Shown here: piece by piece, positions 4,521-61,578 of the stretch
Position numbering within the stretch: the first letter of the stretch is position 1
Layout: the number at the start of each line of letters is the position of its first letter
Source of the DNA: Octopus sinensis
Lineage: Eukaryota
NCBI RefSeq assembly: GCF_006345805.1
Contig: NC_043001.1
Span: 6,324,001-6,388,000 of the forward strand
DNA length: 64,000 bases
Direction of reading: 5' to 3'
The notes under the pieces: generated by a model
Told to the model about the DNA's origin: nothing
What the model saw: only the letters and a program-made list of their open reading frames with translations
The model's database searches: none
Position numbers and translations under genes: made by a program

Positions 4521-4553
<33 letters not shown>

Positions 4554-4559
4554 TGTATG

Positions 4560-12536: not shown

Positions 12537-12585
<49 letters not shown>

Positions 12586-12785: not shown

Positions 12786-13189
12786 TGTTCATGTTTCAGC
12801 ACACGCTCTCAGATCAGGATACTTTCTATGCATGTACATATCCGTAATATATAGTATGTATAACATATGATATTTCGCGTGTATTTCTGTATTAATAGCC
12901 TATATAAATACGCATATATTGACTTGAGATGGAAGATGACATGTCTTTGCTCCCGTTCATGATGTCACCTATGATTATATAAAGCGTGATCTCATGAAAA
13001 AGAATGAACATTTGGATATATGGACACAATTTCCTGTTATTGTCTTATCTTGTACCGCTGCTTCCCCGGAGAATGTTTATTTGTTTAAAAACTGGAAAAG
13101 ACGTCACATAATGAAATACTTTATATGAACAAAAATGAGATACGTTAATATTGTATACAACTGATACGCTAATATTGATATACGCTTCT

Positions 13190-13608
13190 CCCGCATGTCC
13201 GACACTCGCATCCCAAAACAGCTCTACGGTGAACTCGGCCAGGGCAAACGCAAAATCGAAGGGCAGAAGAAGCGCTTCAAGGACAGTCTCAAAGTCTCTC
13301 TCAAAGACTTCTCCATCGGCACAGAGACTTGGGAGACACTTGCTGCCGACCGCTCATCCTGGCGCAGCGCAATCACCACAGGAGCAAAGACATCCGAGGA
13401 GAGACGGATTCAGTCAGCAGAACAGAAACGCCAGATGCGGAAAGCCAGAGCCACCTGCACCAATAGCACAGCCCCTACCCACTTCTGCCCCACCTGTGGG
13501 AGGGGCTTTCTTGCCCGGATTGGCCTCACCAGCCACCTCCGGTCTCATAGCAGCAATTCCACCAAATGATGTCAATGGTCATCTTCGAACCCGAAGGACG
13601 AACATTAT
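13190..13608 (+). mobile_element. 5'-truncated RTE (BovB-like) LINE 3' end with C-terminal C2H2 finger
   Basis: ORF 13195-13569: RIPKQLYGEL...KRFKDSLK...DRSSWR...CPTCGRGFLARIGLTSHLRSH; TATACAACTGA repeated at 13154 and 13609 (candidate TSD). Confidence 0.9.
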
Positions 13609-14989: not shown

Positions 14990-16375
14990 AGATGTACTAC
15001 AGTGTCACCTCATCACTACCAGCAGTTTAATGCATTGATCAATGGAGAAGATGAAATGCCTGGCTGGTTGACAAAAGGACGAACAATATTGTGTCCGAAG
15101 GATGCATGAAAGGGAAATGCTACTACAGATCTATTTCTGATTCCAATTAATGTGGAAGTTATTGTCAAGAGGAATTGCAGAAGAAATGTATAAATTCCTG
15201 AATGAGAACTATATATCAACACCCGAACAAAAAGGCTGTAGAAGAAGATGCAGATGTATAAAAGATAAATTATTGATAGACAAAATGGTAATGCATGGTT
15301 GTAAACGAAGGAGAACAAATTTCGGAATGGTCTGATTTGAATATCGCCAAGCTTTTGATTTGATTCCATATGCGTGGATCCTATGATCGAACTAATATCT
15401 CTTTATATAAGAACTGTTTTGAATTGCAAGGAATGTATCGTGTTTCCTGAAGAGAAGCATGGTGGAATAGAAAACGTAACTGACATCTTAAGGAAAAGCC
15501 TGGGACAACCTGGGAATCAGAAAAGGGGTTTTCCAGGGAGATTGCTTATCTCAATTACTTTTTGTTCACTGCATGATATCCCTGATTTTCGTATTAAGGA
15601 AAATGAACCTGGTGTACCAGCTAAAGGGAAAATCTCAAACAATCAAACACCTTCTCTTCATGGATGATTTGAAACTCTACGGCAAGGATGAGAAAGACGT
15701 GAATTCCTTGGGAAATAAAATCCACTATTTTAGTGCTGATATTAGGAGGGAATTCGGACTCAAAGTGTGTGGAATAATCTACCTAAAAAGGTGCGAGGTA
15801 CAGTCCCTAACAGGAAAGGAACTACCGAATAGAGAATTGATTTAACAAATTGAACGGAATGCTGCAAGAACCGTGGTGTACTAGAGTTAGCAGAGATAAT
15901 GGGGAAAGAAATGAAAGAGCAACTGAGTATGGAATATTTCCAAAGATATAGGTTAGTGTTACACTCAAAATTGACCGGATGGAATAAAATGCAAGATGGT
16001 AATACATGGGTGATAGCATGGACAAAAAGACAAGAAAGAAGGTGACAGAAGGCGCAGCTTTCCACACTAAGAGTGACACCGATATAATGTCCTTGTCCAG
16101 AAGAAAGGTTGGGAGGCGTTCGATCAGTTGCCAGGGCTGTAGAAAAGCAGAAGAAAACAGCTTAGGGTGGTATGTAAAATGTACCGTGGATCCATTCTTG
16201 AAACACACGAAGAAGTTTGTCGTCATCAGAACTGAGAATTGTGTAATGAAAGAAAAATTTAAAGAAGAAATGATCACAAAGATAGAAACAACATGGAAAG
16301 AGAAAAATGCATGGAAAATTTGCAAGCGATTCAAATGCCAAGACAGATAAAGGAGACTGGGGGCTATGGATTTCA
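14990..16375 (+). pseudogene. Decayed R4/Dong-like reverse transcriptase region
   Basis: [23 protein letters not shown]...[35 protein letters not shown]; multiple stops and frameshifts. Confidence 0.9.
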
Positions 16376-20301: not shown

Positions 20302-20893
20302 TTATTCTCGAGATTTCTCAAAAGTAGCTGTCTTCTCATACACAAGCCTTCTCCACCTGCTACGGTCAATAAATATGCCCTCCAATGTTTCAGGAGAGAT
20401 GCTTGCATCGCTTAAGGAAGCCGTCAGAAATTCTTCATACCACTTTTTTGGGGTGGGTTTATGTGGAGATCGATCTCCTTTCGTTAACTCTCCATAAAAG
20501 AGTTGTTTTAGCATCCTTGAATCTTTCATCCTGACCAGATGACCACTCTATCTGAGCTTTTGCTTAAACAAAAGGGTTTCTATACTTCCACACCGAGAGC
20601 TTTCCAATACCTCAAGAATTCTGATGCGGTTCACCCACTTAATGGCATAGATCCGGCTGAGACACATCTTATGGAAACGTTCCAGTTGCTTAAGGTGGTA
20701 TCGATATTTAATATTAGTTGGTTTGCTGCAAAAGCAAAGGTACTTACCTCCAGCATAAGCGACATTTTGTATGCAGAAGATTGTGATCTATTAGCACACA
20801 CATAGATTGATATGCAATACATTTTGAATGCATTCTTTGATGCTTGTACTGCATAAGGATTGACAGTCAGGCTCAAGGAACCTGCTGTCATGT
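20302..20893. mobile_element. Decayed RTE LINE with inverted 5' part
   Basis: Minus 20302-20692: LERFHKMCLSRI...GHLVRMKDSRMLKQLFYGEL...DRSRWR; plus 20693-20893: ISDILYAEDCDLLAH (LYADD motif). Confidence 0.8.
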
Positions 20894-21637: not shown

Positions 21638-21685
<48 letters not shown>

Positions 21686-22020
21686 ATGTATGTATATAAT
21701 AAAATATTAGGTAATAAATCCAAACTTAGAGGAAAAATCAGATTTAGGATTGAATCCAATTTTATAGTAAAATATTATATTATATTAAATTAGAGATAAA
21801 ACCACTATTAGGCAAATCAAACAATGAAAAACTTAAGCCAATACATAAAATTAATTAATTTATATTATTTTAAATATATATCAAAAGTATTAAAAGTTTA
21901 ATAAAAGATAATGAGCAAAACACTACGATCGTTTCATGGCTGTCCAATCCGTAATAATTCGAGTTATGGTTACAGTCAATCTTCAGGTAATTGAAATATT
22001 TATCTTAGCGAGGTTTAGCA
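21533..22020. mobile_element. Tail-to-tail pair of family B elements meeting at (TA)n
   Basis: 21533-21643 is the reverse complement of 21697-21810; both match 4760-4875. Confidence 0.85.
21918..21992 (-). ncRNA. Type I hammerhead ribozyme, second family B copy
   Basis: Minus strand UAC-CUGAAGA-UUGACUGU...ACAGCCAU-GAAA-CGAUCG-UA-GUG. Confidence 0.7.
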
Positions 22021-22023
22021 ATA

Positions 22024-22073
<50 letters not shown>

Positions 22074-23032: not shown

Positions 23033-23545
23033 TCTATATATATAAAACTGTAGTTGTGTGAGTGTCTGTCCCCTTCGATTTAGATTCCTAACTACTCCCA
23101 CATTTTGCGGTGCAGTTTAACCAAATTCGGGTATCTTATAGTCGTGATTCATATCAAGCCCGTCTGAGTATTAGCGCGCGTCTATGATGAGTCTACGATT
23201 TTAAAAATAATTTAATATCATTTTTTATTCCATTTTAATGCATAATTTTTCGTGTGTCGATGGCGGCGGAGTTGGCGTCAATGGTCACACCTGCACCTGT
23301 TTTCTTCTCCCTCTTCTTCCCTCCCTCGGGAAGCTGTGGAGAAGGGAGTGTAAGGAAATCAACGTCGTAAAGCGTTGTCAAGGAAACCAGCGTTCTTTTA
23401 GAACAACGACTTCATGGCTTGAAGACACCAAAACAGAAATGGCTAAGAAAGCCCGAATTGGCATATATAAGGGAAGTAACTCTCTAAAAATGCTTATATA
23501 GTTATTTCCCTTACAAACCCGAGCAACGCCGGGCGATACTGCTAG
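23033..23545 (+). mobile_element. Non-autonomous Helitron
   Basis: Starts TCTATATATATAAAACTG; ends with hairpin CCCGAGCAACGCCGGG, then CTAG followed by T. Confidence 0.8.
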
Positions 23546-33029: not shown

Positions 33030-33776
33030 TCGAAGCTGGAACTCTTGCAGAGTGATACTTTGAAGGACTGCGTCATTTTTGCCTTACCTCTTCCACATCT
33101 GCAAATTCTGTAGCATCAGCTGTCCTCAACAGTAATGACATACGAAAATCGATCCGGATCAATTTCCAAGTGATTTCTTTTTCAGTTCACGACCTTTATT
33201 TAGTCGTTACTTCTTGTGATCTTCCGTGGGCAAGCGTGGCACAAATTTTGTTGCAAGTCTTTCCATTCGCAATTCCTCGCTCAAAATTCGTTGGCATGAG
33301 CTCGAACACACTCCAGCCATATCAACAAGTTAGTCAGTTGTTCAGTGACGTTCCGCTAAGATCAGTTCCTAAATTTCCATCATGTTTTCCTTCGCTCGCC
33401 AGGATAACGTTCGCTCTGAAGGAAGTTGTTCTTCAAACGACAATTGACAATTCTTAAAGCATGGACTCCTCTCCTGAGCTTGTGTTTTGATAATGGCAGC
33501 GTCCTTGTAAGCTGTGTGAAGCCCGACGACTGTTTCGGCTGCCGTTTTCCCTAACAGAAAACAGAATTTCACATTGTTTCTTCGGAAAAATCAACGAATG
33601 CGGAAAAGTTCAGCAAAATAAAGATGCACCATGTGGCAGTGCGACTTCAGCAGACAACACCGGTCAGCAGACCGGTGCCTGCATTGGCATCAAGTGGCAA
33701 CTAGCGGCGGAAGCCTGAACTACAACGGGAATGTCTTACAAAGAACGTTTCCGGTTACTTTCAGATACCTCCTAGT
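33030..33776 (-). mobile_element. Decayed mariner, 5' part
   Basis: KFCFLLGKTAAETV..LHTAYKDAAI (ORF 33369-33572); TIR-like end at ~33745-33776. Confidence 0.8.
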
Positions 33777-33835: not shown

Positions 33836-34510
33836 ACCGTATTTTTGCCACAATAACATGGCTGTTCTATAAAGAACTATATTTCTACATTTTGACCCCA
33901 GGAAAATGACTTTTCCAGCTGGTTAATGATACATGACATGTGTCCAATATATTGTGAGTAAGGGAGCAAATCATTCCCCACCAGCTGGGCAGGACCAGTT
34001 GACCATGACGTCTGGGTCTTTAACCTTCATCGTTACTGGACACCTGTCTGCTAGATGGAAGCCATCAATTGTCCCTCCTTACAATATATAAAGAGAGAAG
34101 CGGCAGACATCGTTGATCTCGTAAGGAGTAAAATAGCTAGTTCTAAAATCTCTAAACGTGATATAAGGAGTAACAATACATGGCGGTAGCGTTTTTTTTT
34201 TCCCACTATAACTTGACTGTTCTATAAAGAGCTATGTTACTACATTTTAACCAAAGGAAAACATCTTTTGCAGCTGGTTTATGACTCACAATCTGTGTCC
34301 GATATATTGTAAGAAAGAGAATTGTTGTGGGTAGGAACGACTGTGAATACGAAGCGAATAAATTGTGAAGAGGACCGATTGACAGCCATCGCTAGCAAGC
34401 AGATGTTCAGTACCGATGAAGAGTTAAGACCCAGAAACCATGGTCTACTGGTCTTGCCAAGCTGGAGAGGAGTGATTCGCTCCCTTACTCTCAATATATC
34501 GGGCACTAAA
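33836..34510. repeat. Two diverged ~360-bp tandem copies of a MITE-like element
   Basis: CTGTTCTATAAAGA.CTAT.TT.CTACATTTT...CAGCTGGTT at ~33862 and ~34217; TACCGTATTTTT start. Confidence 0.55.
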
Positions 34511-34668: not shown

Positions 34669-35408
34669 CTGTATGTGTGTGACTGTGTGTGTGTGCGTGA
34701 GAGAGAGAGAGAGATATCATGTGCACGATGTCTCGAGGTAATAAATGGTCTTCTTAAGAGTAATTTTAAAAGTACAGGATGATTACGAAAACAAGGTGCG
34801 TTCCTTTGCAAACTTGTTCCTCTACATAAGAGTTACCTTTCTATATTCTCGGGTTTCTATCATATTTGGTATTTATTTGCGCATTTTCCACATTCACAAA
34901 AGCCTCATAAATTACAACTAAAGATCTGTGGGTTTTTTTTTTTTTCGATTACATTGACTGCAGCGCACAATTCGTACTCGTTTTCTCGACTCGAAAAAGA
35001 GAAAAAGTTAAAGATGACTTTGATAGAATTTGAGCGCAGAGCCGGAAAAAAAAGTTAGCGAAATGTTTTGTCCCCAAAACTAATGATTCAGGCTGGTAGT
35101 AGCCTTAATTCTTATAACTAGCGGGAGCCGAGAATGGATCACGAACATAATAGTAAAACTGTTGCGTTATTCCTGAAAACTTTATCTAAAAATCCTGAAA
35201 GCGTAATTTCTGTTGTATGTGTATCAAAAGACAGTCGTTCATCTGCTATTCATTGAAAAGTGAAGGAAATTGGAATACGATGATTACTTAATGCACTTTC
35301 TAAATATACATTATATACTTAATGCACAATTTTATAAACTTAATACACAGCACTCATAAAATAAATATTCACTCGTATTTCTCCTTTTCTTACGCAGGAG
35401 TGGCTATA

Positions 35409-35812
35409 GGCGCAGGAGTGGCTGTGTGGTAAGTAGCTTGCTAACCAACCACATGGTTCTGGGTTCAGTCCCACTGCGTGGCATCTTAGGCAAGTGTCTT
35501 CTGCTATAGCCCCGGGCCGACCAAAGCCTTGTGAATGGATTTGGTAGACGGAAACTGAAAGAAGCCTGTCGTATATATGTATATATTTATGTGTGGTTGT
35601 GTGTCTGTGTTTGTCCACCTAGCATTGCTTGACAACCGATGCTGGTGTGTTTACGTCCCCGTCACTTAGCGGTTCGGCAAAAGAGAACGATAGAATAAGT
35701 ACTGGGCTTACAAAGAATAAGTCCCAGCGTCGATTTGCTCGACTAAAGGCGGTGCTCCAGCATGGCCGCAGTCAAATGACTGAAACAAGTAAAAGAGTAA
35801 AAGAGTAAAGAG
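35409..35812 (+). mobile_element. Full-length tRNA-derived SINE family 1 (reference copy)
   Basis: A box TGGCTGTGTGG, B box GGTTCAGTCCC, CORE-like CTTAGGCAAGTGTCTT, internal TA/TG repeat, (TAAAAGAG)n tail; 13-nt head duplication just upstream. Confidence 0.93.
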
Positions 35813-36126: not shown

Positions 36127-37495
36127 AAATAAATTATTTCGTATGTAAAATATAGAGGTCACAATTTCACGGGGGTAAAAATTTAATGCAACAAGGCATA
36201 CTTTGAAACCCACATCGTTGGAAACTTATAAGCCTTTCGGTTCAATACTTCTTTACGGACTATGTTATTCGTCTAAGTTGTCCCTCTTCTTTTCCTTTGT
36301 TTGTCAGTGTTGATGACTTTAACTCTCTCATCAGATTATTTGCGAGCCCTTGGGAATGCAGCATACAGCTGAGTATGGCCGAATACAGGTTCAGGAAATA
36401 ACAACCCAACTTAATCAAAAGTCTCTGCTTATGACTTATTGGTATTTATTGCATATGACCGACAAACACGAAACTGGTTTCTTTCTAAAGTGAATAGTAA
36501 GTTTGAGATGCGCATGCGTTAAGTGGTAGGTGATATAAAAAAATTTAGTTCAATCAAAAGAAAAACAAAATAACTTCTCACTATGCTCTAACCATCGGCA
36601 GCTGCACAACCGCTACCATCTATACTGACACCACCACCACCACTACCACTATATACAAGGTGGCCCAGAAGTAAGTTTACATTTATCACGTAGATACTTT
36701 AAAAATCATTTTATTACGTTAAAGTTTTTGTCTTACACTCACATGGTTTATGCACATCTTATACAGACAATGTTCAATCTCCCAGACGCTGAAAATGTCC
36801 ATCTTTAAGCTTGTAACATTCTTCAAACCTCTTCAGAACACTCTGACACACAGTGCGGCACAAATGCCGATCTCCATCAATTTCAGTGAATGTCACAGAA
36901 ATGTAATCTTTTAATTCATTTACTGTTTCCGAATTCTTCTTATAAACCGTGTACTTTACAACGTACCTCAAAAAATAAATCCATTTGTGAACATGGTGGA
37001 CATTCAATGCTGCCCCGTTTTCCAAACCAACGCTGTGGAAAGGCTTGGTTCAGGGAGTCTCTTAACGACTAATGTGGAGATGCTCCATCTTGTTGAGTAA
37101 TCTATATATATATAAACTGAGGATGTGTGTGTGACTGTCTGTCTGTCTATCTATCTGTGTGAATCCCTAAAACTTAAGAACTACACAACCAATTTCATTC
37201 AACTTTTTTACATATGCATTGCATAGGGTCCAGGGAGTGTCATGGACCAAATTTATTTTTTAACTCTTTGCCTAGGGCGAGCCCACAGCAATATCATATC
37301 TTCTCCATTATGAATCCCTAAAACATGAGAACCACACAACAAATTTCATTCAAATTTTACACATGCCTTACTTAGAGATAATGTAGTGTCATGGGCAAAT
37401 AAATTTCTAACTTCATGACCAGTGAAAGCTCACAGCAATATCACGTCTTCTCCACAATTTCAGTATTACTTGTTTTGATAAACATGATAGACAGA

Positions 37496-40400
37496 ACGGT
37501 TCGCCAAACAAGATCTAAAAAATGAATTAGCGGTTCGCCAACCGTGTTCGATAAAATGCATCAGCCGTTCGCCAACAGTGATCGATAAAATGACTTAGCA
37601 GTTCGTCAAACTTGATGGCTAAAGTGAATTAGCGGTTCGCCGGACGACATCGATAAAATGACTTAGCGGTTCGTTGACCGTGATCGATAAAATGAATTAG
37701 CGGTTCGCCAACAGTAATCGATAAAATGATGTAGCGGTTCACCAATCGTGATCGATAAAATGACCTAGTTGTTCGCCAACTGATCGATAAAATGACTTAG
37801 CAGTTCGCAAAACAAGATCGATAAAATGATCTACCGTTCCACAACCTTGATCGATAAAATAACTTAGCGGTTCACCAAACGTATCGATAAACGTGATCGA
37901 TAAAATGACTTAGGGGTTCGCCAACAGTAATCGATAAAATGAACTAGCGGTTCGCTAAACGTATCGATAAAATGACTAGCGGTTCGCCAAAAGTGATCGA
38001 TAAAATGACTTATCGGTTCGCCAAACGAGATCGATAAGATGACTTAGCGGTTCGCCAAACGTATTTGATAAAATGACCAAGCGGTTCGCCAACCGTTTCG
38101 ATAAAATGACTTAACGGTTCGCAAAATGAGATCAATAAAATAACTTAGTGGTTCGCTAATCGTTATCCATTCGATGAAATGAATAGCGGTTGGCCAACTG
38201 TGATTGATTAAATAACTTAGCCGTTCGCCAAAACTGATCGATAAATGAATTAGCGATTCGCCAAACGAGATGGACAAAATGACTTAGCGGTTCGCCAAAC
38301 GTGATCTATAAAATGACCTAGCGTTTCACCAACCGTGATCGATATAAATGACATAGCGGTTCGCCAAACGATATCGATAAAATGATTTAGCGGTTCGCCA
38401 CATGAGATCGATAAAATGACTTAGCCGTTCGCCAAACGATATCGATAATATCCATAAAATGAGTTGCTGGTTCGCCAACCGTGTTCGATAAATTGACTAA
38501 GCAGTTCGCAAACCATGATCGATAAAAATGACGTAGCGGTTCGCCAAACGAGATCGATAAAATGAATTAGCGGTTCCCAACAGTGATCGATAAAAATGAC
38601 CTAGCGGTTCGCCAACCATGATCGATGAAATGACTTAGCAGTTTGCCAAACGAGATCGATACAGTGAACTAGAGGTTCGCCAAACGAAATGGATAAAATG
38701 AAATAGCGGTTCGCCACCAGTGATCGATAAAGTGACTTAGCGGATCGACAAACGAGATCGATAAAATGAATTAGCGTTTCGCTAATCGTGATCGATAAAA
38801 TGACTTCGCGATTCGCCAATCGTGATCGATAAAATGACAGCGGTTCGTCAACCGTGATCGATAAAATGACCTAGCGGTTCGCCAACCATGATCGATAAAA
38901 TGATTTAGAGGTTCGTCAACCGTTTTCGATAAAATGACCTAGCAGTTGGCCAACTGTGATCGATAAAATGAATTAGCTGCTCGCTAATCATGATCGATTA
39001 AATGACTTAGCGGTTCGCCACCTGTGATGGATAAAAATGATCTAACAGATCGCCAACAAGATCGATAAAAAGACCTAGCGGTTCGCCAAACCTAACCGAT
39101 AATATGACTTAGCGGGCTGCCAACTGTGAACGATAAAAATGACTTAGCTGTTCACCAAACGTTCTCGATAAAATGACTTTGCAGTTCATCAACGATGATC
39201 GATACAATTCTAGCAGTTCGCCAACCGTTATCGATAAAAAGTACTAGCGGTTCGCCAAAACGAGTTCGATAAATTAAAATAGCGATTCGCTAAACGTAAA
39301 CGATAAAATGACTTACTGGTTCGCCAACCGTGGTCGATAAAATGAACTATCGCTTCACCAACAGTGATCGATAAAATGATCTAGCATTTCGCCAAACATA
39401 ATCGATAAAATGAATTAGCGGTTCGTTTGTCATATTCGATGAAATGACATAGCGGTTCGCCACCATGATCGATAAAATGAATTAGCGGTTCACCAAACCT
39501 GATCGATAAAATGATTTAGCGGTTCGCCAAACGCCATCGATAAAATGACTTAGCGGTTCGCCAACCGTGATCGATAAAATGACATAGTGCTTGGCCAACA
39601 GTGATCGATAAAATGACCTAGCGCTTCGCCAAACGTAATCGATAAAATGAATTAGCGGTTCGTTTGTCATATTCGATAAAATGACTTAGCAGTTCGCCAA
39701 CCATGATCAATAAAATGAATTAGCGTTTCACCAAACCTGATCGATAAAATGATTTAGCGGTTCGCCAAACGATATCGATAAAATGAATTTGCGGTTCAAC
39801 ACTGGAGATCGATAAAATGACTTAGCCGTTCGACTAAAGATATCGATAAAATAAATTAGCGGTTTGCCAAACGAAATCGATGAAAAGACCTAGCGGTTCG
39901 CCAACCGTCAGCGATAAAATGAATTAGCGGTTGACCAACCGTCATCGATAAAAATGACCTAGCGATTGGCCCAGCGTTATCGATAATATGACATAGCGGT
40001 TCGCTAATCTTGATCGATAAAATGATTAGCAGTTGGCCAACTGTGATCGATTAAATGACTTAGCCGTTCGCCAAAACATGATCGCTAAAATGACCTAGCA
40101 GTTCCCCAAACGTGACCGATAAAATGACTTAGCGGTTCACCCACCATGATCGATGAAATGACATAGCGGTTCGCCAAGCGCTATCGATAAAATGACTTAG
40201 CTGCTCGCTAATCTTGATCGATAAAATGATTAGCGGTTGGCCAACTGTGATTGATTAAATGACTTAGCCGTTCGCCAAAACATGATCAACAAAATGACTT
40301 AGCAGTTTGCCAAACGAGATCGATACAATGACATAGCGGTTCGCCAAACAAGAAGGATCAAATGACCTAGCGGTACGTTGACCGTGATCGATAAAATGGC

Positions 40401-41810
40401 TTAGAGGTTCGCCAACCGTGAACGATAAAATGACATAGCTGTTCGCCACAGTGATCTATAAACTGAATTAGCGGTTCGCCATCGTGATCGAGAAAATGAA
40501 TTAGCGGTTCGCCAACCGCGGCCGATAAAATGACTTAACGGTTCGCCATCTTGATCGATAAAATAACTTAGCGGTTAGCCAAACGTATCGATATAATGAC
40601 TAGCGGTTCGCCAAATGTAATCGATAAAATGACTTGTGATGGCTGTCAGACTTAGATGTTCACCAAACGTGATGGATAAAATGATCTAGCGGTTCGGCAA
40701 GACTGATCGATACAATGACATTAGCGGTTCGCCCAACGTGATCGATAAAATGACCTGGCGGTTCACCAAAAGTAATCGATAAAATGAATTATCGGTACGC
40801 CAAACGTGATCGATAAAATGAACTAGCGGTTCGCCAAACGTGGTTGATAAAATGACCTAGCGGTTCGCCCACGAGTTCGATAAAATGAATTAGCGGTTCG
40901 CTAATCCTGATCGATAAAATGATTAGCGGTTGGCCTCTGTGATCGATAAAATGAATTAGCGGTTCGCTAATCGTGATCGATAAAATGATTGGCGGTTCGC
41001 CAACCGTGATCGATAAAATTAACTAGCAGTTCGTCATAAATAATCGATAAAATGACTTAGCTGTTCGCCAACAGTAATCGGTAAAATACTCTAGCGGTTC
41101 GCCATCCATGATCGAAAAAATGAAATAGCAGTTCACGAAACCTGATCGATAAAATGACTTAGCGGTTCGCCAAACGTTATCGATAAAATGACCTAGCGGT
41201 TCGCCAACCGTGATCGATAAAATGACCTAACGCTTCGCCAACAGTAATCGATAAAATGAACTAGCGCTTCGCCAAACGTAATCGATAAAATGAATTAGCG
41301 GTTCGCTAATCGTGATCGATAAAATGATTAGCGGTTCCCAACTGTGATCGATAAAAATGACCTAGCGGTTCGCCAACCATGATCGATAAAATGACTTAGC
41401 AGTTTGCCAAACGATATCTATAAAATGAATTAGCGGTTCGCCAAATAAGATCGATAAAATGACGTAGCGGTTCGGCAAACGTGATCGATAAAATGAATAG
41501 CGGTTTGCCAAACGAGATCTAAAAAATAACCAGCGGTTCGCCAACCATTACCGATAAAATGAATTAAAGTTTCGCCAAACATGTTCGATAAAATGAAGTA
41601 GCGGTTCGCCAAACGATATCTATAAAACGATCTAGCGGTTCGCCATACGTGATCGATAAAATGACCTAGCAGTTCGCCAACCATTCTCGATAAAATGAAT
41701 TAAAGTTTCGCCAAACATGTTCGATAAAATGACCTTGCGGTTCGCCAACAGTGATCGATAAAATAATATAGCAGTTTGCCAAACTTGATCGATAAAATGA
41801 CCTACCGGTT
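37496..41810. repeat. 34-bp minisatellite, roughly 125 copies
   Basis: Consensus GACTTAGCGGTTCGCCAAACGTGATCGATAAAAT; period counted at 38281-38314; copy number estimated as length/34. Confidence 0.97.
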
Positions 41811-42054
41811 CCTCAGGATATGCGGGATGCTAACATCATTACGCTTTACAAACACAAAGGTGACCGTGGTGATTGTAACGATGACCGTGGAATATCTCTT
41901 CCAAGCACCGTTGGAAAGGCCTCTGCTCGCCTTATCCTGTCCAGGCTGCAACTGCCTGCTTCTCGAATTTATCCAGAATCGCAGTGTGGCTTTAGAAGAA
42001 GCAGATCAGCTATTGACATGATATTCTCCATACGCCAACTGCAGGAGAAATCCA
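41807..42054 (+). pseudogene. RTE reverse transcriptase fragment (N-terminal RT motifs)
   Basis: VPQDMRDANIITLYKHKGDRGDCN..RGISL...PESQCGFRRSRSAIDMIFSIRQLQEK. Confidence 0.92.
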
Positions 42055-42310
42055 GATTCTGGATAAATTCGAGAAGCAGGCAGTTGCAGCCTGGACAGGA
42101 TAAGGCGAGCAGAGGCCTTTCCAACGGTGCTTGGAAGAGACATTCCACGGTCATTGTTACAATCACCACGGTCACCTTTGTGTTTGTAAAGCGTAATGAT
42201 GTTAGCATCCCGCATATCCTGAGGAACCGGTAGGTCATTTTATCGAACACGTTTGGCGAACCGTTAATTCATTTTATCGATTATGGTTGGCGAACTGCTA
42301 GGTCATTTTA
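42055..42310 (-). repeat. Inverted duplicate of the minisatellite/RTE junction
   Basis: 42055-42245 is a near-identical reverse complement of 41790-41980, followed by about two further inverted monomers. Confidence 0.95.
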
Positions 42311-42682
42311 TATATGGCTTTCATTGATCACACGATCACAATTTTTTCTTTTGGTGGGGGGGTGGTAAATAGGGAAATAACCCTCATCTGTAATTTTGAT
42401 GAAATTCGAAACAGATAATGCAGTTAGCGGTTCATTAGAGAAAATATAAGAGAAAAGTCTAATTCTTCAATTGTACGTAACACGGGTAACGCCGGGTATC
42501 TCTGCTCGTGGTTTCGTATTTTTATTTTGATAATTAGGATCTAAACAGTATATGAATGCAAAAGAATAACAGCAAACTTATTTATGGGTCACCCTCTATT
42601 ATATTATCTTACAGAGATTTTAAGTCGCATGGGTTCGAATCAAACTTTTCCAAATAATAATCCTCTCTCTCTCTCTCTGTAT

Positions 42683-43666: not shown

Positions 43667-44203
43667 TCATACAAACATATATATATATATATATATGTCT
43701 ATATACACACATATATATAAATGCTTTTGTATGTGTATTCGGGTGTGTTTTAAATACACACGCCCTTGTACGCCCAAAGTGAAACTGCGAAATTTACTTG
43801 CATTTGATATTGAAGAGTTAGCCTAACTTATTGAAATGAACCAGCATGGACTCATGTCATTCGTTAATTTTTAGACCCTCCAGAATTATTTATCGTATCA
43901 CCGTAGCAACATTATTAACAAGAGCTGTGCAGGGAATCATATGAGGAATATAATTAAGGAAAAAAATAATTCCGAGATCATTAATTCGAGTCCCCCACAA
44001 CGCAACGCCGAACCAACTATAACAACTGCGCACCTGTGATTTTGTTTTCGTACACATTTAAATGATTTCAAGAGATGATGTATCTTTGTACTAATTTCCT
44101 CTTACCTGCTTCTCATGCGGCATTCCCAGCTGCACTGTGTAATTAAATATACTTGAAATATACACTGACAGCTGTTGCACGTTTATTATTGTGGAGGTAG
44201 TCA

Positions 44204-44700
44204 GGCGGCGAACTGGCAGAATGGTTAGCACGCCGGGCGAAATGCGTAGCCGTATTTCGTCTGACGCTACGTTCTGAGTTCAAATTCCGCCGAGGTCGAC
44301 TTTGCCTTTCATCCTTTCAGGGTCGATAAATTAAGTACTATTTACGCACTGGGGTCGATATAATACACTTAATCCGTCTGTCTATCCTTGTTTATCCTCT
44401 CTGTGTTTAGCCCCTTGAGGGCAGTAAAGAGATAGGTATTTCGTCTGGCGCTACGTTCTGACTTCAAATTCCACCGAGGTCGTCTTTGCCTTTCATCCTT
44501 TCGGGGTCGATTAAATAAGTACCAGTTTCGCACTGGGGTCGATATAATCGGCTTAATTCGTTTGTCTGTCCTTGTTTGTCCCTTTTGTGTTTAGCCCCTT
44601 GTGGGTAATAAAGAAATAGGTATTTCGTCTTTTTTAACATTCTGAGTTCAAATTGCACAGAGTTGGACTTCGCCTTTCGTCCTTTCGTATTTTATTTCGG
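44204..44700 (+). mobile_element. SINE family 2, one full copy plus two headless tandem copies
   Basis: GTATTTCGTCT...TTCTGAGTTCAAATT restarts at ~44252, ~44435 and ~44620. Confidence 0.88.
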
Positions 44701-53004: not shown

Positions 53005-53013
53005 ACACATATA

Positions 53014-53046
<33 letters not shown>

Positions 53047-53051
<5 letters not shown>

Positions 53052-54127
53052 GAGAGAGTGGGGGAGCACGGTTTATTCGTGATCAGAGTTAATACTGTGA
53101 TCAGAGATAACACTATATTTCGATGAAAACTACAAAAGTTTCCTAATCAAAATACTACAATTAAACGATTCTAATATGTTGATTTGTTTTATAACATGTA
53201 TTTAGTGATTAGTTTTGTTTTATCTAAGTATAAATCATAGTTTCCGTGCTGTGAATATATGAATAATAAGTTTATTTTTTCTTTGTCATATACGTCTGAA
53301 ATAAACTATTTACATAGTAAATTATTGTATTAAAATCAATCTTTCTAAATCGTTTATTAGTCGTATTGTTAGGATAAAAGGTAGTCATATAATCATATCA
53401 AAGGGAAAGGGTATCAATTATTGATTTTCCTAGAATCTATATTCCATATTTTGATAATATAACATATGTTGTAACAGTTCGAAACAACCAGTTTGAAATC
53501 CTCTCTTCAAAATATTATATTCCCTGACAGTTTAAACCATGCATCAAGATTAGATACACAAATGCAATAGATAACATACACAATATTTCATGTTCCATTT
53601 CGTCTGGTAGAAATTTGATATTGAAAATTATATCAAATATTTGAAATTAGCAAAAAAAAAAATCATTAATCCACTGTATTATTAATTAAACATTATATTA
53701 TTAAATTAAATCCATAAAACATGCAAACATAATATTTCATATATTATCGATGCGAACAGACTTCAAATATAACATAACATATATTAATATTTAAATATAA
53801 TATGACATGTATAAACATCATGCGTAAACTAACAACATAAAACAAATTATTTTGAAAGTGTTAATGTAAATGGAAACTAATATTATTTAATTAGACGGAA
53901 GGAATGTAAGTATAGATAGATATATACAAATATATATATATATGTGTGTGTGTGTATATATATATATGTGTGGGTGGGTGAGAGAGAGATTAAGCCCATA
54001 ACATACACAATGTTAAATGAAATATATTATAAAGTTGATATATACAAATATAAGCATATTTAATTCCCTCTATGTGAGATGCGCATACATACACACACAC
54101 ACAGATATTTGTATATAATACAGACAC

Positions 54128-54193
<66 letters not shown>

Positions 54194-55080
54194 CAGAGAG
54201 AGAGTGGGGGAGCACGGTTTATTCGTGATCAGAGTTAATACTGTGATCAGAGATAACACTATATTTCGATGAAAACTACAAAAGTTTCCTAATCAAAATA
54301 CTACAATTAAACGATTCTAATATGTTGATTTGTTTTATAACATGTATTTAGTGATTAGTTTTGTTTTATCTAAGTATAAATCATAGTTTCCGTGCTGTGA
54401 ATATATGAATAATAAGTTTATTTTTTCTTTGTCATATACGTCTGAAATAAACTATTTACATAGTAAATTATTGTATTAAAATCAATCTTTCTAAATCGTT
54501 TATTAGTCGTATTGTTAGGATAAAAGGTAGTCATATAATCATATCAAAGGGAAAGGGTATCAATTATTGATTTTCCTAGAATCTATATTCCATATTTTGA
54601 TAATATAACATATGTTGTAACAGTTCGAAACAACCAGTTTGAAATCCTCTCTTCAAAATATTATATTCCCTGACAGTTTAAACCATGCATCAAGATTAGA
54701 TACACAAATGCAATAGATAACATACACAATATTTCATGTTCCATTTCGTCTGGTAGAAATTTGATATTTGAAAATTATATCAAATATTTGAAATTAGCAA
54801 AAAAAAAAAATCATTAATCCACTGTATTATTAAATTAAACATTATATTATTAAATTAAATCCATAAAACATGCAAACATAATATTTCATATATTATCGAT
54901 GCGAACAGACTTCAAATATAACATAACATATATTAAATATTTAAATATAATATGACATGTATAAAACATCATGCGTAAACTAACAACATAAAACAAATTA
55001 TTTTGAAAGTGTTAATGTAAATGGAAACTAATATTATTTAATTAGACGGAAGGAATGTATGTATAGATAGATATATACAA

Positions 55081-55112
<32 letters not shown>

Positions 55113-55285
55113 ATATATATATATGTGTGGGTGGGTGAGAGAGAGATTAAGCCCATAACATACACAAAGTTAAATGAAATATATTATAAAGTTGATATAT
55201 ACAAATATAAGCATATTTAATTCCCTCTATGTGAGATGCGCATACATACACACACACACAGATATTTGTATATAAATACAGACAC

Positions 55286-55336
<51 letters not shown>

Positions 55337-55340
55337 ATAT
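53047..55340. repeat. Near-identical tandem duplication, unit ~1146 bp, TA-bounded
   Basis: CAGAGAGAGAGTGGGGGAGCACGG begins at 53047 and 54193. Confidence 0.95.
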
Positions 55341-55515
55341 ACACAAAATAATAGTTATCGCCATACTAATATGGCATTCTTATAAAAATAAGAAAAAGCT
55401 GTCCGCTTATTAGCTCCATGAGGCCATCGCCTTAAGTTAGCTATTTGATACACAAACTGTATCCATATAACCTTCGAACAAGGGAGGTCAGTCGCTCCAC
55501 ACTACTTGACTGGCA

Positions 55516-55557
55516 GCTACAGACGCGTTTCGGAGTATTGCCCCTTTTCAATGCAGC
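55516..55557 (-). ncRNA. Minimal type I hammerhead ribozyme, U3-A8 core variant
   Basis: GCUGCA-UUGAAAA-GGGG(CAAUA)CUCC-GAAA-CGCG-UC-UGUAGC. Confidence 0.8.
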
Positions 55558-56047
55558 GTAGCCAGCCAGTAGGTGTCGCTTCCGACAATCTCTGTTCGAT
55601 GGTTTTATTTACCTAGTTTCGGTGGAATACATCCACTTGTTTTCAATAATAGAAATATTAAAATAACTAAGTCTCTCTAAAAGAGAACAGCGGCAGCGTT
55701 CCCGGAAAATAATAGTTATCGCCATACTAATATGGCATTCTTATAAAAATAAGAAAAAAGCTTGTTCGAAGGTTATATGGATACAGTTTGTGTATCAAAT
55801 AGCTAACTTAAGGCGATGGCCTCATGGAGCTAATAAGCGGACAGCTTTTTTCTTATTTTTATAAGAATGCCATATTAGTATGGCGATAACTATTATTTTC
55901 CGGGAACGCTGCCGCTGTTCTCTTTTAGAGAGACTTAGTTATTCTAATATTTCTATTATTGAAAACAAGTGGATGTATTCCACCGAAACTAGGTAAATAA
56001 AACCATCGAACAGAGATTGTCGGAAGCGACACCTACTGGCTGGCTAC

Positions 56048-56089
56048 GCTGCATTGAAAAGGGGCAATACTCCGAAGCGCGTCTGTAGC
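56048..56089 (+). ncRNA. Same hammerhead with A15.1-to-G change
   Basis: Reads GAAG-CGCG-UC instead of GAAA-CGCG-UC. Confidence 0.7.
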
Positions 56090-56409
56090 TGCCGGTCAAG
56101 TAGTGTGGAGCGACTGACCTCCCTTGTTCGAAGGTTATATGGATACAGTTTGTGTATCAAATAGCTAACTTAAGGCGATGGCCTCATGGAGCTAATAAGC
56201 GGACAGCTTTTTTCTTATTTTTATAAGAATGCCATATTAGTATGGCGATAACTATTATTTTCCGGGAACGCTGCCGCTGTTCTCTTTTAGAGAGACTTAG
56301 TTATTCTAATATTTCTATTATTGAAAACAAGTGGATGTATTCCACCGAAACTAGGTAAATAAAACCATCGAACAGAGATTGTCGGAAGCGACACCTACTG
56401 GCTGGCTAC

Positions 56410-56451
56410 GCTGCATTGAAAAGGGGCAATACTCCGAAGCGCGTCTGTAGC
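56410..56451 (+). ncRNA. Same hammerhead with A15.1-to-G change
   Basis: Identical to 56048-56089. Confidence 0.7.
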
Positions 56452-56693
56452 TGCCGGTCAAGTAGTGTGGAGCGACTGACCTCCCTTGTTCGAAGGTTAT
56501 ATGGATACAGTTTGTGTATCAAATAGCTAACTTAAGGCGATGGCCTCATGGAGCTAATAAGCGGACAGCTTTTTTCTTATTTTTATAAGAATGCCATATT
56601 AGTATGGCGATAACTATTATTTTCCGGGAACGCTGCCGCTGTTCTCTTTTAGAGAGACTTAGTTATTTTAATATTTCTATTATATATACACAC

Positions 56694-56719
<26 letters not shown>

Positions 56720-56724
<5 letters not shown>

Positions 56725-58295
56725 GTATATAGATATATACAATTATATATATACGTATATATGTATGTATCGTGTACGCATTCATGCCTATGTAGACACA
56801 TATTGCACATATTTTGGCCGAATTAATATAAAAGTTGTTCAGAATTATAATTTTCAGTCATCATAAAAGCGATGACATAATGCATTTGTAGATTTTCCTA
56901 TTAATTTCCCGCCAAAGAGACATTGAAATATACCTTCACGCTTCGGGCTGAGGAACTTCACCAGCAGCAAAAGCAAACAATAAACACGAATAAAGTAATT
57001 ATTAAGAAGTTTCACACCATGCCCCCCTCCATAACACCGTTCCGAATCAGCAGGTTTTTGAAAGAATAAAATCGGTGAGCAGATTCCATTTAGAATGGTC
57101 CACGACTTCTGTGTTAGAGTTATCTCTTTTGGAAAACGACATACAGGAAGGGTGAACTCTGCTAACACTTAGACTTCTTGTATGTCGATTTCCAAAAGCT
57201 CCTACAATTTCTTGATGAACAAATCTTCTGGACCAAATACTACTGGAAACCAAACTCTATGACACAATTTCTGCCTAAAACTGAAATATCACTTTAGCTA
57301 TGAAGTTAGTGCAGACTTCATTCAGTTCGACATATGTAATCAAAAAGACAATGCATCCAGTGTTGCGTTTTTGTAATACTTATAGCTTATTGCTTCATTC
57401 GAGACTATAGTATTTATGTGATCTGATAGTCTTTAAATAATAAATGGGTGTTTGTTGAACAATGGTATAGATGTTAACCGTTGTTTAGAGAAGTATAACA
57501 CCAGATTTTAAGTGTTTCCACACTGAAATCATGAACTAAGAGACTCCTTAATCGAAAAGGAATAATCCTTCTATGATAACCTTTAAAACACTTGTGTATC
57601 TGTGTCCGGATTTAGTTTTCACAGTGTTGCTGCATTTGAACACCTATTTCATGCTTTACCCATTATTTTTTCTGAAAACTATATCTATTTTCGAAATGAT
57701 AATAACATTTCTCTTCTAGTTTATCTTTCCCATTATTGTCTTGCCTAGTTAAATATGTTTAGCAAAAAGACTGACTCTTTCTGATAAGAATTAGATATTT
57801 TTCTTTCCAAATAATCTTTCGAGTGTAAATTCTAATTTGAATCAATCAGTTACAATTTAAGTGGGACAAAAAAGATTGGCACATCTCCATTTATGTATTC
57901 ACACATAGGAGATAGAATATTTTTTGCGCAGAATAATATTTTCATGTCTCTTTTGATTTTTGCAAGATTATATTCAATTATACCCTGTTATTCTGTTCCA
58001 AAATTAAATTTCCTAAGTATGGTTTTATGGTATAATATGTTTTCAGAAATGCATATCTCACAAAACAATATATGTTGTTTATTTCAAGAAAAATAAAACG
58101 TGTCTGTTTTCAGAAAACAGAGAGCAATTAGCGAAAGTCGAAGATTTTAACATACTATCGGTGACTACATTTTATCTGCAAACATAAAAAATAGGGAAAA
58201 ATCAAAATGTAGTATCTATATATTTTACTCATAAGTAAATTTATCTGCAACAAATTTTATATTCGTCTACAGATGCAAATCATTTGAGAAGTGTC

Positions 58296-58337
<42 letters not shown>

Positions 58338-59909
58338 AGTATATAGATATATACAATTATATATATACGTATATATGTATGTATCGTGTACGCATTCATG
58401 CCTATGTAGACACATATTGCACATATTTTGGCCGAATTAATATAAAAGTTGTTCAGAATTATAATTTTCAGTCATCATAAAAGCGATGACATAATGCATT
58501 TGTAGATTTTCCTATTAATTTCCCGCCAAAGAGACATTGAAATATACCTTCACGCTTCGGGCTGAGGAACTTCACCAGCAGCAAAAGCAAACAATAAACA
58601 CGAATAAAGTAATTATTAAGAAGTTTCACACCATGCCCCCCTCCATAACACCGTTCCGAATCAGCAGGTTTTTGAAAGAATAAAATCGGTGAGCAGATTC
58701 CATTTAGAATGGTCCACGACTTCTGTGTTAGAGTTATCTCTTTTGGAAAACGACATACAGGAAGGGTGAACTCTGCTAACACTTAGACTTCTTGTATGTC
58801 GATTTCCAAAAGCTCCTACAATTTCTTGATGAACAAATCTTCTGGACCAAATACTACTGGAAACCAAACTCTATGACACAATTTCTGCCTAAAACTGAAA
58901 TATCACTTTAGCTATGAAGTTAGTGCAGACTTCATTCAGTTCGACATATGTAATCAAAAAGACAATGCATCCAGTGTTGCGTTTTTGTAATACTTAGAGC
59001 TTATTGCTTCATTCGAGACTATAGTATTTATGTGATCTGATAGTCTTTAAATAATAAATGGGTGTTTGTTGAACAATGGTATAGATGTTAACCGTTGTTT
59101 AGAGAAGTATAACACCAGATTTTAAGGGTTTCCACACTGAAATCATGAACTAAGAGACTCCTTAATCGAAAAGGAATAATCCTTCTATGATAACCTTTAA
59201 AACACTTGTGTATCTGTGTCCGGATTTAGTTTTCACAGTGTTGCTGCATTTGAACACCTATTTCATGCTTTACCCATTATTTTTTCTGAAAACTATATCT
59301 ATTTTCGAAATGATAATAACATTTCTCTTCTAGTTTATCTTTCCCATTATTGTCTTGCCTAGTTAAATATGTTTAGCAAAAAGACTGACTCTTTCTGATA
59401 AGAATTAGATATTTTTCTTTCCAAATAATCTTTCGAGTGTAAATTCTAATTTGAATCAATCAGTTACAATTTAAGTGGGACAAAAAAGATTGGCACATCT
59501 CCATTTATGTATTCACACATAGGAGATAGAATATTTTTTGCGCAGAATAATATTTTCATGTCTCTTTTGATTTTTGCAAGATTATATTCAATTATACCCT
59601 GTTATTCTGTTCCAAAATTAAATTTCCTAAGTATGGTTTTATGGTATAATATGTTTTCAGAAATGCATATCTCACAAAACAATATATGTTGTTTATTTCA
59701 AGAAAAATAAAACGTGTCTGTTTTCAGAAAACAGAGAGCAATTAGCGAAAGTCGAAGATTTTAACATACTATCGGTGACTACATTTTATCTGCAAACATA
59801 AAAAATAGGGAAAAATCAAAATGTAGTATCTATATATTTTACTCATAAGTAAATTTATCTGCAACAAATTTTATATTCGTCTACAGATGCAAATCATTTG
59901 AGAAGTGTC

Positions 59910-59915
<6 letters not shown>
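56720..59915. repeat. Near-identical tandem duplication, unit 1614 bp, TA-bounded
   Basis: Identical ORFs offset by 1614 bp (56854/58468, 57893/59507). Confidence 0.96.
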
Positions 59916-59995
<80 letters not shown>

Positions 59996-60408: not shown

Positions 60409-60427
60409 TGTACGTATGTATGTATGT

Positions 60428-61370
60428 GGAAAATGTCAAAATAGAAGATACTAAAATAATTTTATTAAAAATATTCCAGTTCCGATTACAGTTATTGAGA
60501 TTTTTCAACTATAAGTATGGAAAATAATTAAATTTTGGATTTAAAGATTTTAAAAGAATATTTGAATAGTATTCAAATACAAGTGGCATTTTCCTTGTTT
60601 CTGCCTGTTTCTGTCTCTCTTGTCAACACTTGTGGGTTCGAGGTCGTTGTGAATTCCTGGCAGGGAAGAAGAAGAAGAAGAGAAGAAGAAGAAGAGAAGA
60701 AGAAGAAGAGAAGAAGAAGAAGAAGAAGAAGAAGAAGAAAAAGAAGAAGAAGAAAAAGAAGAAGAAGAAAAAGAAGAAGAAGAAGAAGAAGAAGAAGAAG
60801 ATGAAGAAGAAAAAGAAGAAGAAGAAGAAGAAGGAGGAGGAGTAGGAGGAGAAGACGAAGAATGCGGGAGTGCCATGATAATAGTAGGATTTTAAATGGT
60901 CAAGTGCCCTGAAAGTGATCTGTTGTGGATGATGGTAATGATTGAATGCAAATTTTATAAACAAAGCATTCAAAAGAGATGTTTCAGGAATTCAATCACT
61001 ACTACCATCCACAACAAGGCATTTTTAAGGCACTTGACCTTTTAATATCCTACTACTATCATGGCACACCTGCATTCTTATTCTCCTCCTCCCCCTTCTT
61101 TTTCTTCTTCCTCTTCTTCCCTGCGAAGAATTCACAATGACCTCGAAACGACAAGAAAATAAACAAGAGAGACAGAGGCAGGCAGAAACAAGGAAAATGC
61201 CCCTTGTATTTGAAAACTATACAAATATTCTTTTAAAAAACTTTTCTTTCATTTTTTCCAAAATTTAATTGTTTTCCATACTTACAGTTGAAAAACTCTC
61301 AATGACTGAAACCGGTACCGAAATGATTTTTATAAAATCATTTTAGCATTTTCTACCTTGAATTTTTCCA
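60428..61370. mobile_element. ~940-bp fold-back (MITE/Foldback-like) with (GAA)n in its arms
   Basis: 60428-60947 is a diverged reverse complement of 60990-61370; ends GGAAAA / TTTTCC. Confidence 0.85.
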
Positions 61371-61578
61371 TATATATCAACTCGTGTGTTCCTTTCCAGC
61401 CTTCTACACACACACACACATACACACACACACACACCACACACACACACACATATATATACATGCATACATACATTCATGTTTCATACTCAATTATATT
61501 AATATTCTTCGTGATAGGGAAACTTTCCTATAGTATTCTTCTCCATATAATATTTCCCGCTGACGCGATCTGCAAAAG

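What the first reader, a model, noticed from the sequence alone, without database searches (positions are those of the whole stretch)
37496..41810. 4.3-kb minisatellite apparently born from an internal SINE segment
Seen: monomer variant ACTTAGCGGTTCGCCAAACGAGATCGATAAAATG matches SINE family 1 at 35664-35697 (ACTTAGCGGTTCGGCAAAAGAGAACGATAGAATA) at 29 of 34 positions by hand alignment. It is CpG-rich in an AT-rich context, with frequent CG-to-CA/TG variants. Inference: one SINE module was amplified about 125-fold, giving a potential small-RNA source, decoy or protein-binding array aimed at an abundant SINE. The reverse direction (the SINE captured a monomer) cannot be excluded.
Basis: partly seen in the sequence, partly recalled or inferred. 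Interest (0 to 1): 0.75.

Follow-up and report, generated by a model that had tools for sequence, protein, structure and literature searches.

The report
SINE-derived minisatellite inside a Helitron
In what appears to be an octopus genome, a 34-base piece of a common jumping gene was copied about 127 times in a row inside a second, rolling-circle jumping gene; both processes are known separately, and nothing in the sequence suggests the array has a function.

Summary
The array is real: about 127 copies of a 34-bp unit at 37491-41812, 79% pairwise identity. Its consensus matches an internal segment of the window's commonest tRNA-type SINE at 28/34, far above chance. Three first-stage claims need correcting. 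The quoted 29/34 monomer is not literally present (best real monomer 28). CpG decay in the array is no higher than background. The donor was not the neighbouring copy but an older or sister SINE: the monomer keeps the state of a second, homologous SINE family at 3-4 of 6 differing sites. The array fills a non-autonomous Helitron-type element (37101-42508), whose ends match a second element in the window and which splits a Tc1/mariner fossil at an A|T site. Its right end is fused to a LINE reverse-transcriptase fragment (best named matches Octopus) and a recent fold-back inversion. Best reading: a neutral, transposon-born, transposon-housed minisatellite. A SINE-silencing or decoy role is unsupported: no array 21-mer is within two mismatches of the four best SINE copies. 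SINE-derived satellites and Helitron-borne repeats are each published; my searches did not find the combination. New variant of a known kind, modest interest.

The parts
36653..36686 (.). Left terminal inverted repeat of a decayed Tc1/mariner-type element (host site)
   Evidence: Its best partner among 2550 window tiles is 42566-42599 in inverted orientation (score 36, next 26); BLAST 76% over 34 bp, E=0.026
36777..37098 (-). Broken transposase remnant, cut off at the Helitron's 5' end
   Evidence: 63% identity over 74% of the 90-aa query to a 355-aa protein carrying PF16087+PF13358 (DDE_3), E=5e-18 (2 hits among 16 candidates). A QQDGA-type motif starts at 37095 in another frame (motif label recalled). 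Pfam alone found nothing relevant
37101..37157 (+). Helitron-type 5' end (TC after an A) and short GTCT-type microsatellite
   Evidence: Best match among 2123 tiles to the 5' end of the element at 23033 (score 51, next 38; 32 of 39 aligned columns identical); only 2 such ends in the window
37160..37454 (+). Older internal tandem duplication, 2 x ~151 bp, 76% identical
37491..41812 (+). 34-bp minisatellite, 126 full monomers plus remnants; 123 of 126 are unique
   Evidence: no exact internal repeat of 50 bp or more
41808..42052 (+). Decayed fragment from the start of the RT domain of an APE+RT LINE (RTE-like, clade inferred), joined to the last monomer through a short GTTC microhomology (inferred)
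   Evidence: 80-aa open frame; RVT_1 E=4e-4, below cut-off; 79-83% identity to four named Octopus bimaculoides proteins among 120 listed of 2633 hits; the homologues have V-P (3 of 4) just upstream; tblastn
42055..42311 (-). Fold-back inversion: inverted copy of the LINE fragment, the junction and 2.6 monomers
   Evidence: Arms 41724-41980 / 42055-42311, 94%; 2 mismatches in the 191 bp next to the centre; folds as a long hairpin, z=-49.6
42481..42508 (+). Helitron-type 3' end: imperfect 16-nt palindrome, 12 nt, then CTCG (one change from CTRR) followed by T
   Evidence: 22 of 31 identical to the 3' end of the element at 23033-23545; second-best of 2123 tiles (26; the best, 30, lies at 63701 in a SINE family 2 copy); only 2 such palindromes in the window
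42566..42599 (.). Right terminal inverted repeat of the interrupted Tc1/mariner-type element
35664..35697 (+). Homologous 34-bp module in a copy of SINE family 1 (element 35405-35812); a relative of the donor, not the donor
   Evidence: 28/34 to the array consensus; about 11 module-region copies in the window, about one per 5.4 kb, so a copy within 2 kb is expected
23033..23545 (+). Second, array-free Helitron-type element sharing both termini (5' TC, palindrome, CTAG then T)
   Evidence: its interior shows no similarity to the array-bearing element

Best explanation
A neutral, selfishly expanding minisatellite made from a SINE part and housed in a rolling-circle transposon. Steps: (1) SHOWN: the 34-bp unit is homologous to one module of a central domain shared by two tRNA-type SINE families. 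(2) INFERRED: it came from an older or sister SINE, not today's dominant family. It was first duplicated by slippage or template switching, plausibly at a TAA microhomology lying exactly 34 bp apart in the SINE. (3) SHOWN: the array is the central filler of a non-autonomous Helitron-type element that interrupts a mariner fossil at A|T. INFERRED: the Helitron took up the module, or a short SINE-born array, as filler DNA and carried it here. (4) INFERRED: unequal exchange, slippage and patchy conversion grew it to 127 units and shuffled variants, probably immobilising the element. (5) SHOWN structure, INFERRED order: a LINE RT fragment was joined to the last monomer, decayed, and a recent fold-back copied the LINE piece, the junction and 2.6 monomers in reverse. 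No host function is needed.
For: SINE homology. Shared SINE domain extending beyond the monomer. Outgroup states at 3-4 of 6 sites for 7 of the 8 best gap placements chosen on family 1 alone (2 of 6 for the eighth); simulated p=0.003-0.03. TA precedes the module in 4 of 8 SINE segments listed and TAA follows at 34 bp in 6 of 8; 8 of 127 monomers keep the SINE base at the junction. Helitron termini and sister element. Split mariner. Patchwork variants, 123 unique of 126, linked variant pairs, small block duplications. Inverted monomers differ from their best match by 5/76 plus a 2-monomer offset, against 2/169 in the LINE arm (p=0.03), consistent with continuing array turnover. Precedents: PMC10702118, PMC11121367, PMC7492417.
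Against: Only one array-bearing element was available, so mobility of the array with the Helitron is not shown. The SINE piece could have inserted into a resident Helitron and lost its flanks. The 3' terminus is CTCG, not CTRR, and is only the second-best tile match. The outgroup test rests on 6 sites and on consensuses of 8-10 local copies. Variability along the monomer is patchy (2-50% per site, autocorrelation p=0.017), and the CpGs are retained; shared ancestry and conversion can explain both, but selection was not excluded.
Confidence: 0.65

Rival explanations
1. In-situ SINE satellite: a whole SINE inserted into an already resident Helitron fossil, its module expanded locally, and the SINE's head and tail were later deleted. 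The Helitron is a bystander.
For: This is the usual route for squamate SINE-derived satellites (PMC10702118). The right end was rearranged (LINE fragment, fold-back), which could have removed the SINE tail. The sister element at 23033 has no array.
Against: No SINE sequence flanks the array. The left-flank hit is only (TA/TG) microsatellite, and the right flank scores p=0.175 and p=1.0. The left edge shows no rearrangement, yet no SINE head is there.
Confidence: 0.17
2. One reading: the array is a small-RNA source, decoy or protein-binding platform directed at the abundant SINE.
For: Real homology to the SINE module; CpGs kept at 2x expectation; conserved and variable blocks in the monomer. 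The fold-back would give a long dsRNA if transcribed. Satellites are relatively more methylated than transposons in O. bimaculoides (PMC9476566, passages).
Against: 0 of 4302 21-mers within 2 mismatches of the 4 best SINE copies, and 28-mers have at least 4 mismatches. The array has no intrinsic structure (z=+0.77). The hairpin is mostly LINE, not SINE. No Rfam or tRNA hit in the window. There is no transcription evidence. The setting is nested transposon debris.
Confidence: 0.07
3. Reverse direction: an ancient satellite donated a monomer to the SINE ancestor.
For: The monomer looks more ancestral than SINE family 1 at 3-4 sites. It aligns weakly twice in succession to family 2 (p=0.003-0.027) and to the region downstream of the module in family 1 (p=0.03-0.16).
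Against: The module sits within a longer domain shared by two SINE families whose modules are only 20/34 identical, while monomers are 86% identical to their own consensus; the array is therefore much younger than the domain. The weak double alignments were not corrected for multiple tests.
Confidence: 0.05
4. The array was born from the neighbouring SINE copy at 35664, or from the current family 1 master.
For: Proximity (1.8 kb); 28/34 identity.
Against: The copy at 22764 matches equally well (28/34), and edge monomers are no closer to the SINE than central ones. Spacing makes proximity expected. The outgroup states are unlikely from random drift off family 1. A mariner half and the Helitron 5' end lie in between.
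Confidence: 0.04
5. Assembly or long-read artefact (error-inflated monomer diversity, chimeric fold-back read).
For: Fold-backs are a known chimera type (recalled). Near-identical tandem duplications occur at 53-60 kb.
Against: Variants are mostly substitutions, recur, and are linked. The arms differ by 2 substitutions and a 2-monomer offset. Sequence resumes into a proper Helitron end and the matching mariner repeat.
Confidence: 0.03

Closest known systems
SINE-derived satellites (sSat1-3) of squamates, Vassetzky et al. 2023, PMC10702118 (read parts 1-4 of 5)
   Same: Tandem units cut from an internal part of a tRNA-derived SINE; loci of up to hundreds of units; heterogeneous variants
   Different: Units there are ~67-290 nt (here 34). 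Long loci there are 89-94% homogeneous (here 79%). Most keep a terminal unit running to a SINE end (none here). No Helitron host was described in the parts read.
PcH-sat of the limpet Patella caerulea, Petraccioli et al. 2024, PMC11121367 (read parts 1-2 of 6)
   Same: A mollusc satellite derived from part of a tRNA SINE (Nin-SINE)
   Different: 179-bp monomer, 92-99.8% homogeneous, pericentromeric, ~10% of the genome, from the SINE 3' part; here a short heterogeneous unit from a central module inside a transposon
Cg_HINE elements of Crassostrea gigas and DINE-1-like elements, PMC7492417 (passages; Discussion part 1 of 2) and PMC4067079 (passages)
   Same: Non-autonomous rolling-circle element with a GTCY-type microsatellite near the left end, central tandem repeats and a 3' palindrome. 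Two different arrays can share one element, as here (2 x 151 bp, then 127 x 34 bp).
   Different: Those are Helentron-type (subterminal repeats, TT target) with 140-180-bp units and at most 29 copies. Here the ends are canonical Helitron-type (TC ... CTRR-like, A|T target), the unit is 34 bp and SINE-derived, and there are 127 copies.
Octopus tRNA-derived SINEs (OR1, OR2, OK; Ohshima and Okada 1994, seen only as a citation; the name OK is recalled)
   Same: Window SINE families 1 and 2 are probably among these; SINEs are ~40% of octopus transposon content (PMC8967140, passages)
   Different: I could not assign either family or their shared domain to a named family or domain. Motif searches of three supplements found nothing (one file unsearched in each of two papers), and the SINEBase supplement was unavailable.

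Membership tests
SINE-derived satellite (sSat, PMC10702118) | Tandem unit homologous to a portion of a SINE family in the same genome, shorter than the SINE | tested here: met
   28/34 to the family 1 module, p=0.001 by shuffle
SINE-derived satellite (sSat, PMC10702118) | At least four internal units in head-to-tail array | tested here: met
   126 full monomers
SINE-derived satellite (sSat, PMC10702118) | Extended terminal unit running to a SINE terminus (major variants; minor variants lack it) | tested here: not met
   No SINE similarity in either flank beyond microsatellite; fits only the paper's minor class
SINE-derived satellite (sSat, PMC10702118) | Multiple loci, subtelomeric bias, homogenisation of long loci | not testable with these tools
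   No eukaryotic genome collection available; local homogeneity is low (79%)
tRNA-derived SINE (window family 1) | Interspersed <1 kb repeat with tRNA-like head, body and simple-repeat tail | tested here: inconclusive
   About 410 bp, at least 14 dispersed copies or fragments, short tandem tail. The tRNA-like head was judged by eye only; ARAGORN and Rfam at default thresholds found nothing
Canonical Helitron (definition in PMC4067079) | 5' TC terminus | tested here: met
   TC at 37101; end shared with the element at 23033
Canonical Helitron (definition in PMC4067079) | 3' CTRR terminus | tested here: inconclusive
   CTCG here (one change); CTAG in the sister element with a homologous end
Canonical Helitron (definition in PMC4067079) | 16-20-nt palindrome about 11 bp from the 3' end | tested here: met
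   Imperfect 16-nt palindrome at 42481-42496, 12 nt from the end; weak hairpin of -3.3 kcal/mol
Canonical Helitron (definition in PMC4067079) | Insertion between A and T without target duplication | tested here: met
   A at 37100, T at 42509; the flanks are two halves of one mariner-type element. The sister element has G, not A, at its 5' side
Canonical Helitron (definition in PMC4067079) | Dispersed family copies, empty sites, autonomous Rep/Helicase partner | not testable with these tools
   One sister element shares the termini only; no genome-wide search was possible
Helentron-type HINE / DINE-1 | Insertion into TT / T-rich target | tested here: not met
   Target is A|T
Helentron-type HINE / DINE-1 | Subterminal inverted repeats | not tested
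   No dedicated search was run
RTE-clade LINE | RT phylogeny groups with RTE | not tested
   No tree built. Full-length homologues are single ~1040-1130-aa APE+RT proteins, like the 1109-aa RTE-2_OV (PMC9115989, passages); the clade label is inferred

The most novel reading that the evidence does not exclude
A three-step relay (SINE domain, then Helitron filler, then satellite) has spread this 34-mer as a dispersed octopus satellite family. At this locus the added fold-back makes a ~190-260-bp near-perfect dsRNA that is diced or A-to-I edited and targets both an RTE-like LINE and the SINE-born satellite, so nested transposon debris would have built a silencing locus. The dispersed-family half alone I put near 0.4; the functional half is much less likely.
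Probability: 0.06. Interest if true: 0.72.

Novelty: new variant of a known kind. Interest (0 to 1): 0.33.

Why it matters
It links two known routes of satellite birth in one locus: a SINE supplies the unit and a rolling-circle transposon supplies the housing and possibly the dispersal. It extends SINE-derived satellites to a cephalopod and to a very short unit; the authors of PMC10702118 left open whether such satellites occur outside squamates, though a limpet case has since appeared. The monomer may preserve an older state of an octopus SINE domain. The fold-back offers an internal clock: the LINE arms have diverged about 1% while the duplicated monomers differ several-fold more, which makes minisatellite turnover measurable. 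None of this implies a function for the host.

Tried and rejected
CpG hypermutation in the array: rejected, with SINE copies as a positive control. Higher-order repeat: none; lag identities are flat at 0.77-0.79. SINE head or tail flanking the array: none. Origin from the Helitron's own 3' interior: a 10-bp word shared with the monomer lies near 42425-42434, but 5.7% of 1114 control tiles score as well, so it was not used. Intrinsic RNA structure of the array: none. Rfam, ARAGORN, a phage DNA search and a bacterial promoter scan (not meaningful for this genome) gave nothing. Copy-level SINE1-SINE2 alignments were not significant (p=0.06-0.2); only the consensus-level test was. Naming the SINE domain: I first recalled it as Nin, but passages of PMC4758252, PMC5804259, PMC4824008, PMC11481361 and PMC3531059 and motif searches of three supplements did not confirm this, so no name is claimed; unseen supplement files may hold the answer. 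Literature searches for an octopus case or a SINE-in-Helitron satellite listed no such paper; the library lacks most subscription papers and Repbase/Dfam.
Full report
Observation. Tandem Repeats Finder reports a period-34 array at 37497-41811, about 127 units. Wrap-around alignment resolved 126 full monomers plus remnants. They average 86% identity to the consensus and 79% to each other; 123 of 126 are unique, none equals the consensus, there is no higher-order period, and no exact internal repeat reaches 50 bp. The consensus matches the SINE copy at 35664-35697 at 28 of 34 positions. That is far above chance: 33.3 bits against a null maximum of 16.0 in 30 resampled windows, and p=0.001 in 1000 shuffles. 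All 8 profile hits outside the array and its inverted tail lie in copies of the same SINE.

CpG. The array is CpG-rich (observed/expected 1.98). Transitions at CpG sites (85/1003) are no more frequent than at other C/G sites (71/869; p=0.87). Ten SINE copies, as a positive control, do show CpG decay (43/262 against 103/1130; p=0.001). The implied methylation signature is therefore absent. Counts across monomers are not independent, so this is indicative only.

Organism. The 80-residue frame right after the array is a LINE reverse-transcriptase fragment. Among the 120 listed of 2633 homologues, the highest identities are to named Octopus bimaculoides proteins (83% and 82%; two more at 80% and 79%), with unnamed records reaching 80%. 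With the SINE- and microsatellite-rich landscape, an octopus genome is inferred; the species was not determined.

Donor and direction. The window has a second SINE family. Consensuses of 10 copies of each family align collinearly over about 100 bp that include the module and continue past its 3' end (p=0.0005-0.001; the part beyond the monomer alone p=0.004-0.03). Single-copy comparisons had not been significant. The module is thus part of an older shared SINE domain, and the monomer boundaries cut inside it, which favours SINE-to-satellite. At the 6 sites where the monomer differs from family 1, it has the family 2 base at 3-4 for 7 of the 8 gap placements that best fit family 1 (2 for the eighth); family 1 shares the family 2 base at only 1. 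Random drift from family 1 gives this with p=0.003-0.03. The donor was therefore probably an older or sister SINE. The copy at 35664 is no better a match than the one at 22764, and module-bearing copies occur about every 5.4 kb, so its proximity means nothing. I could not attach a published name to either family or to the domain.

The array lies between a 5' end beginning TC at 37101 and a 3' palindrome plus CTCG ending at 42508, flanked by A and T. A separate 513-bp element at 23033-23545 has homologous ends with a perfect CTAG. Its 5' end finds 37101 as the best of 2123 tiles (51 against 38); its 3' end finds this locus as second best (26; the best, 30, is in a SINE family 2 copy). These are the terminal features of canonical Helitrons as defined in PMC4067079 (passages), with one terminal mismatch. 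Independent support comes from the flanks. A transposase remnant (63% identity to a DDE_3 protein) is cut exactly at 37100, and its terminal repeat at 36653-36686 finds its inverted partner at 42566-42599, the best of 2550 tiles. So the 5.4-kb unit is nested in a mariner-type fossil. Inside the 5' end are a GTCT-type microsatellite and a 2 x 151-bp duplication. This layout closely parallels the repeat-carrying Cg_HINE elements of oyster (PMC7492417), although those have Helentron-type ends and much shorter arrays.

The right end. The last monomer runs into the LINE fragment through a short microhomology (inferred from homologues). After 240 bp the sequence folds back, repeating the LINE piece, the junction and 2.6 monomers in reverse. 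The 191 bp nearest the centre differ at 2 sites. The inverted monomers have no exact match in the array; their best match differs at 5 of 76 sites and is offset by two monomers (p=0.03 against the LINE arm). This suggests the array has kept changing since a recent inversion; a template switch or arm-to-arm conversion could also explain it. If transcribed, this segment would form a long hairpin (z=-49.6), but it is mostly LINE sequence and nothing shows transcription.

Function. A role against the SINE is poorly supported. None of 4302 array 21-mers is within two mismatches of any of the four best SINE copies, and the longest shared word is 15 nt. A 311-nt array stretch has no special structure. 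Against pure neutrality, site variability is patchy (p=0.017) and CpGs persist, and PMC9476566 (passages) reports relatively higher methylation on octopus satellites than on transposons. Shared ancestry of variants is evident from linked pairs and may explain the patchiness, but I did not simulate this.

Mechanism, committed. A module of an older SINE was tandemised and became the filler of a non-autonomous Helitron, which inserted into a mariner fossil. The array grew by unequal exchange and slippage, then gained a LINE fragment and a fold-back. Homology, nesting and the inversion are shown. Capture by the Helitron, the order of events and neutrality are inferred (confidence 0.65). The main rival is local expansion from a SINE that landed in a resident Helitron (0.17).

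Comparison and novelty. SINE-derived satellites are established in squamates (PMC10702118, parts 1-4 of 5 read) and reported in a limpet (PMC11121367, parts 1-2 of 6). Rolling-circle elements with central repeats are established in molluscs and flies. This locus meets the core definition of a SINE-derived satellite, though not the usual extended terminal unit, and most terminal criteria of a Helitron; it fails the Helentron target-site criterion. Searches listed no octopus case and no SINE-derived array inside a Helitron, within an open-access library only. Verdict: real, a new variant of a known kind, probably without function; interest 0.33. Whether it is a dispersed family could not be checked, because no eukaryotic genome collection was available.

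Noticed in passing
window 44203-44687: SINE family 2 copy with a 184-bp internal tandem of 2.4 units (84% alike): a short, nascent SINE-derived tandem of the kind proposed as a satellite seed
   Followed up: partly
window 23033-23545: Compact non-autonomous Helitron-type element with clean ends, abutting the head of a SINE family 1 copy
   Followed up: yes
window 53009-59953: Cluster of very young duplications: 1190 bp at 98.3%, 362-bp tandem at 99.8%, 1658 bp at 99.5%, and an inverted 563-bp pair (55241-55762 / 56205-56767, 88%); recent segmental events or assembly redundancy
   Followed up: no
window 13165-13569, 15492-15842, 20305-20892: Further decayed LINE fragments (RVT_1 at 15492, E=1e-4; weak tblastn hits to an octopus LINE protein at the other two)
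   Followed up: partly
window 33200-33500 (-): Sequence that by eye resembles a mariner transposase N-terminal region; not confirmed by any tool (printed)
   Followed up: no
window 4513-4886 / 21685-22067; 11827-12077 / 12530-12782; 60420-60707 / 61075-61377; 33940-34089 / 34358-34506: Other dispersed or inverted repeat pairs (77-83%), probably DNA transposons or MITE ends
   Followed up: no
window 42416-42434: A 10-bp exact word of the monomer in the Helitron's 3' interior, possibly an old array remnant; 5.7% of control tiles score as well
   Followed up: yes
whole window: No host protein-coding exon was evident among 104 frames of 90 or more residues; the window is dominated by microsatellites and transposon relics. 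Short exons were not searched for.
   Followed up: no
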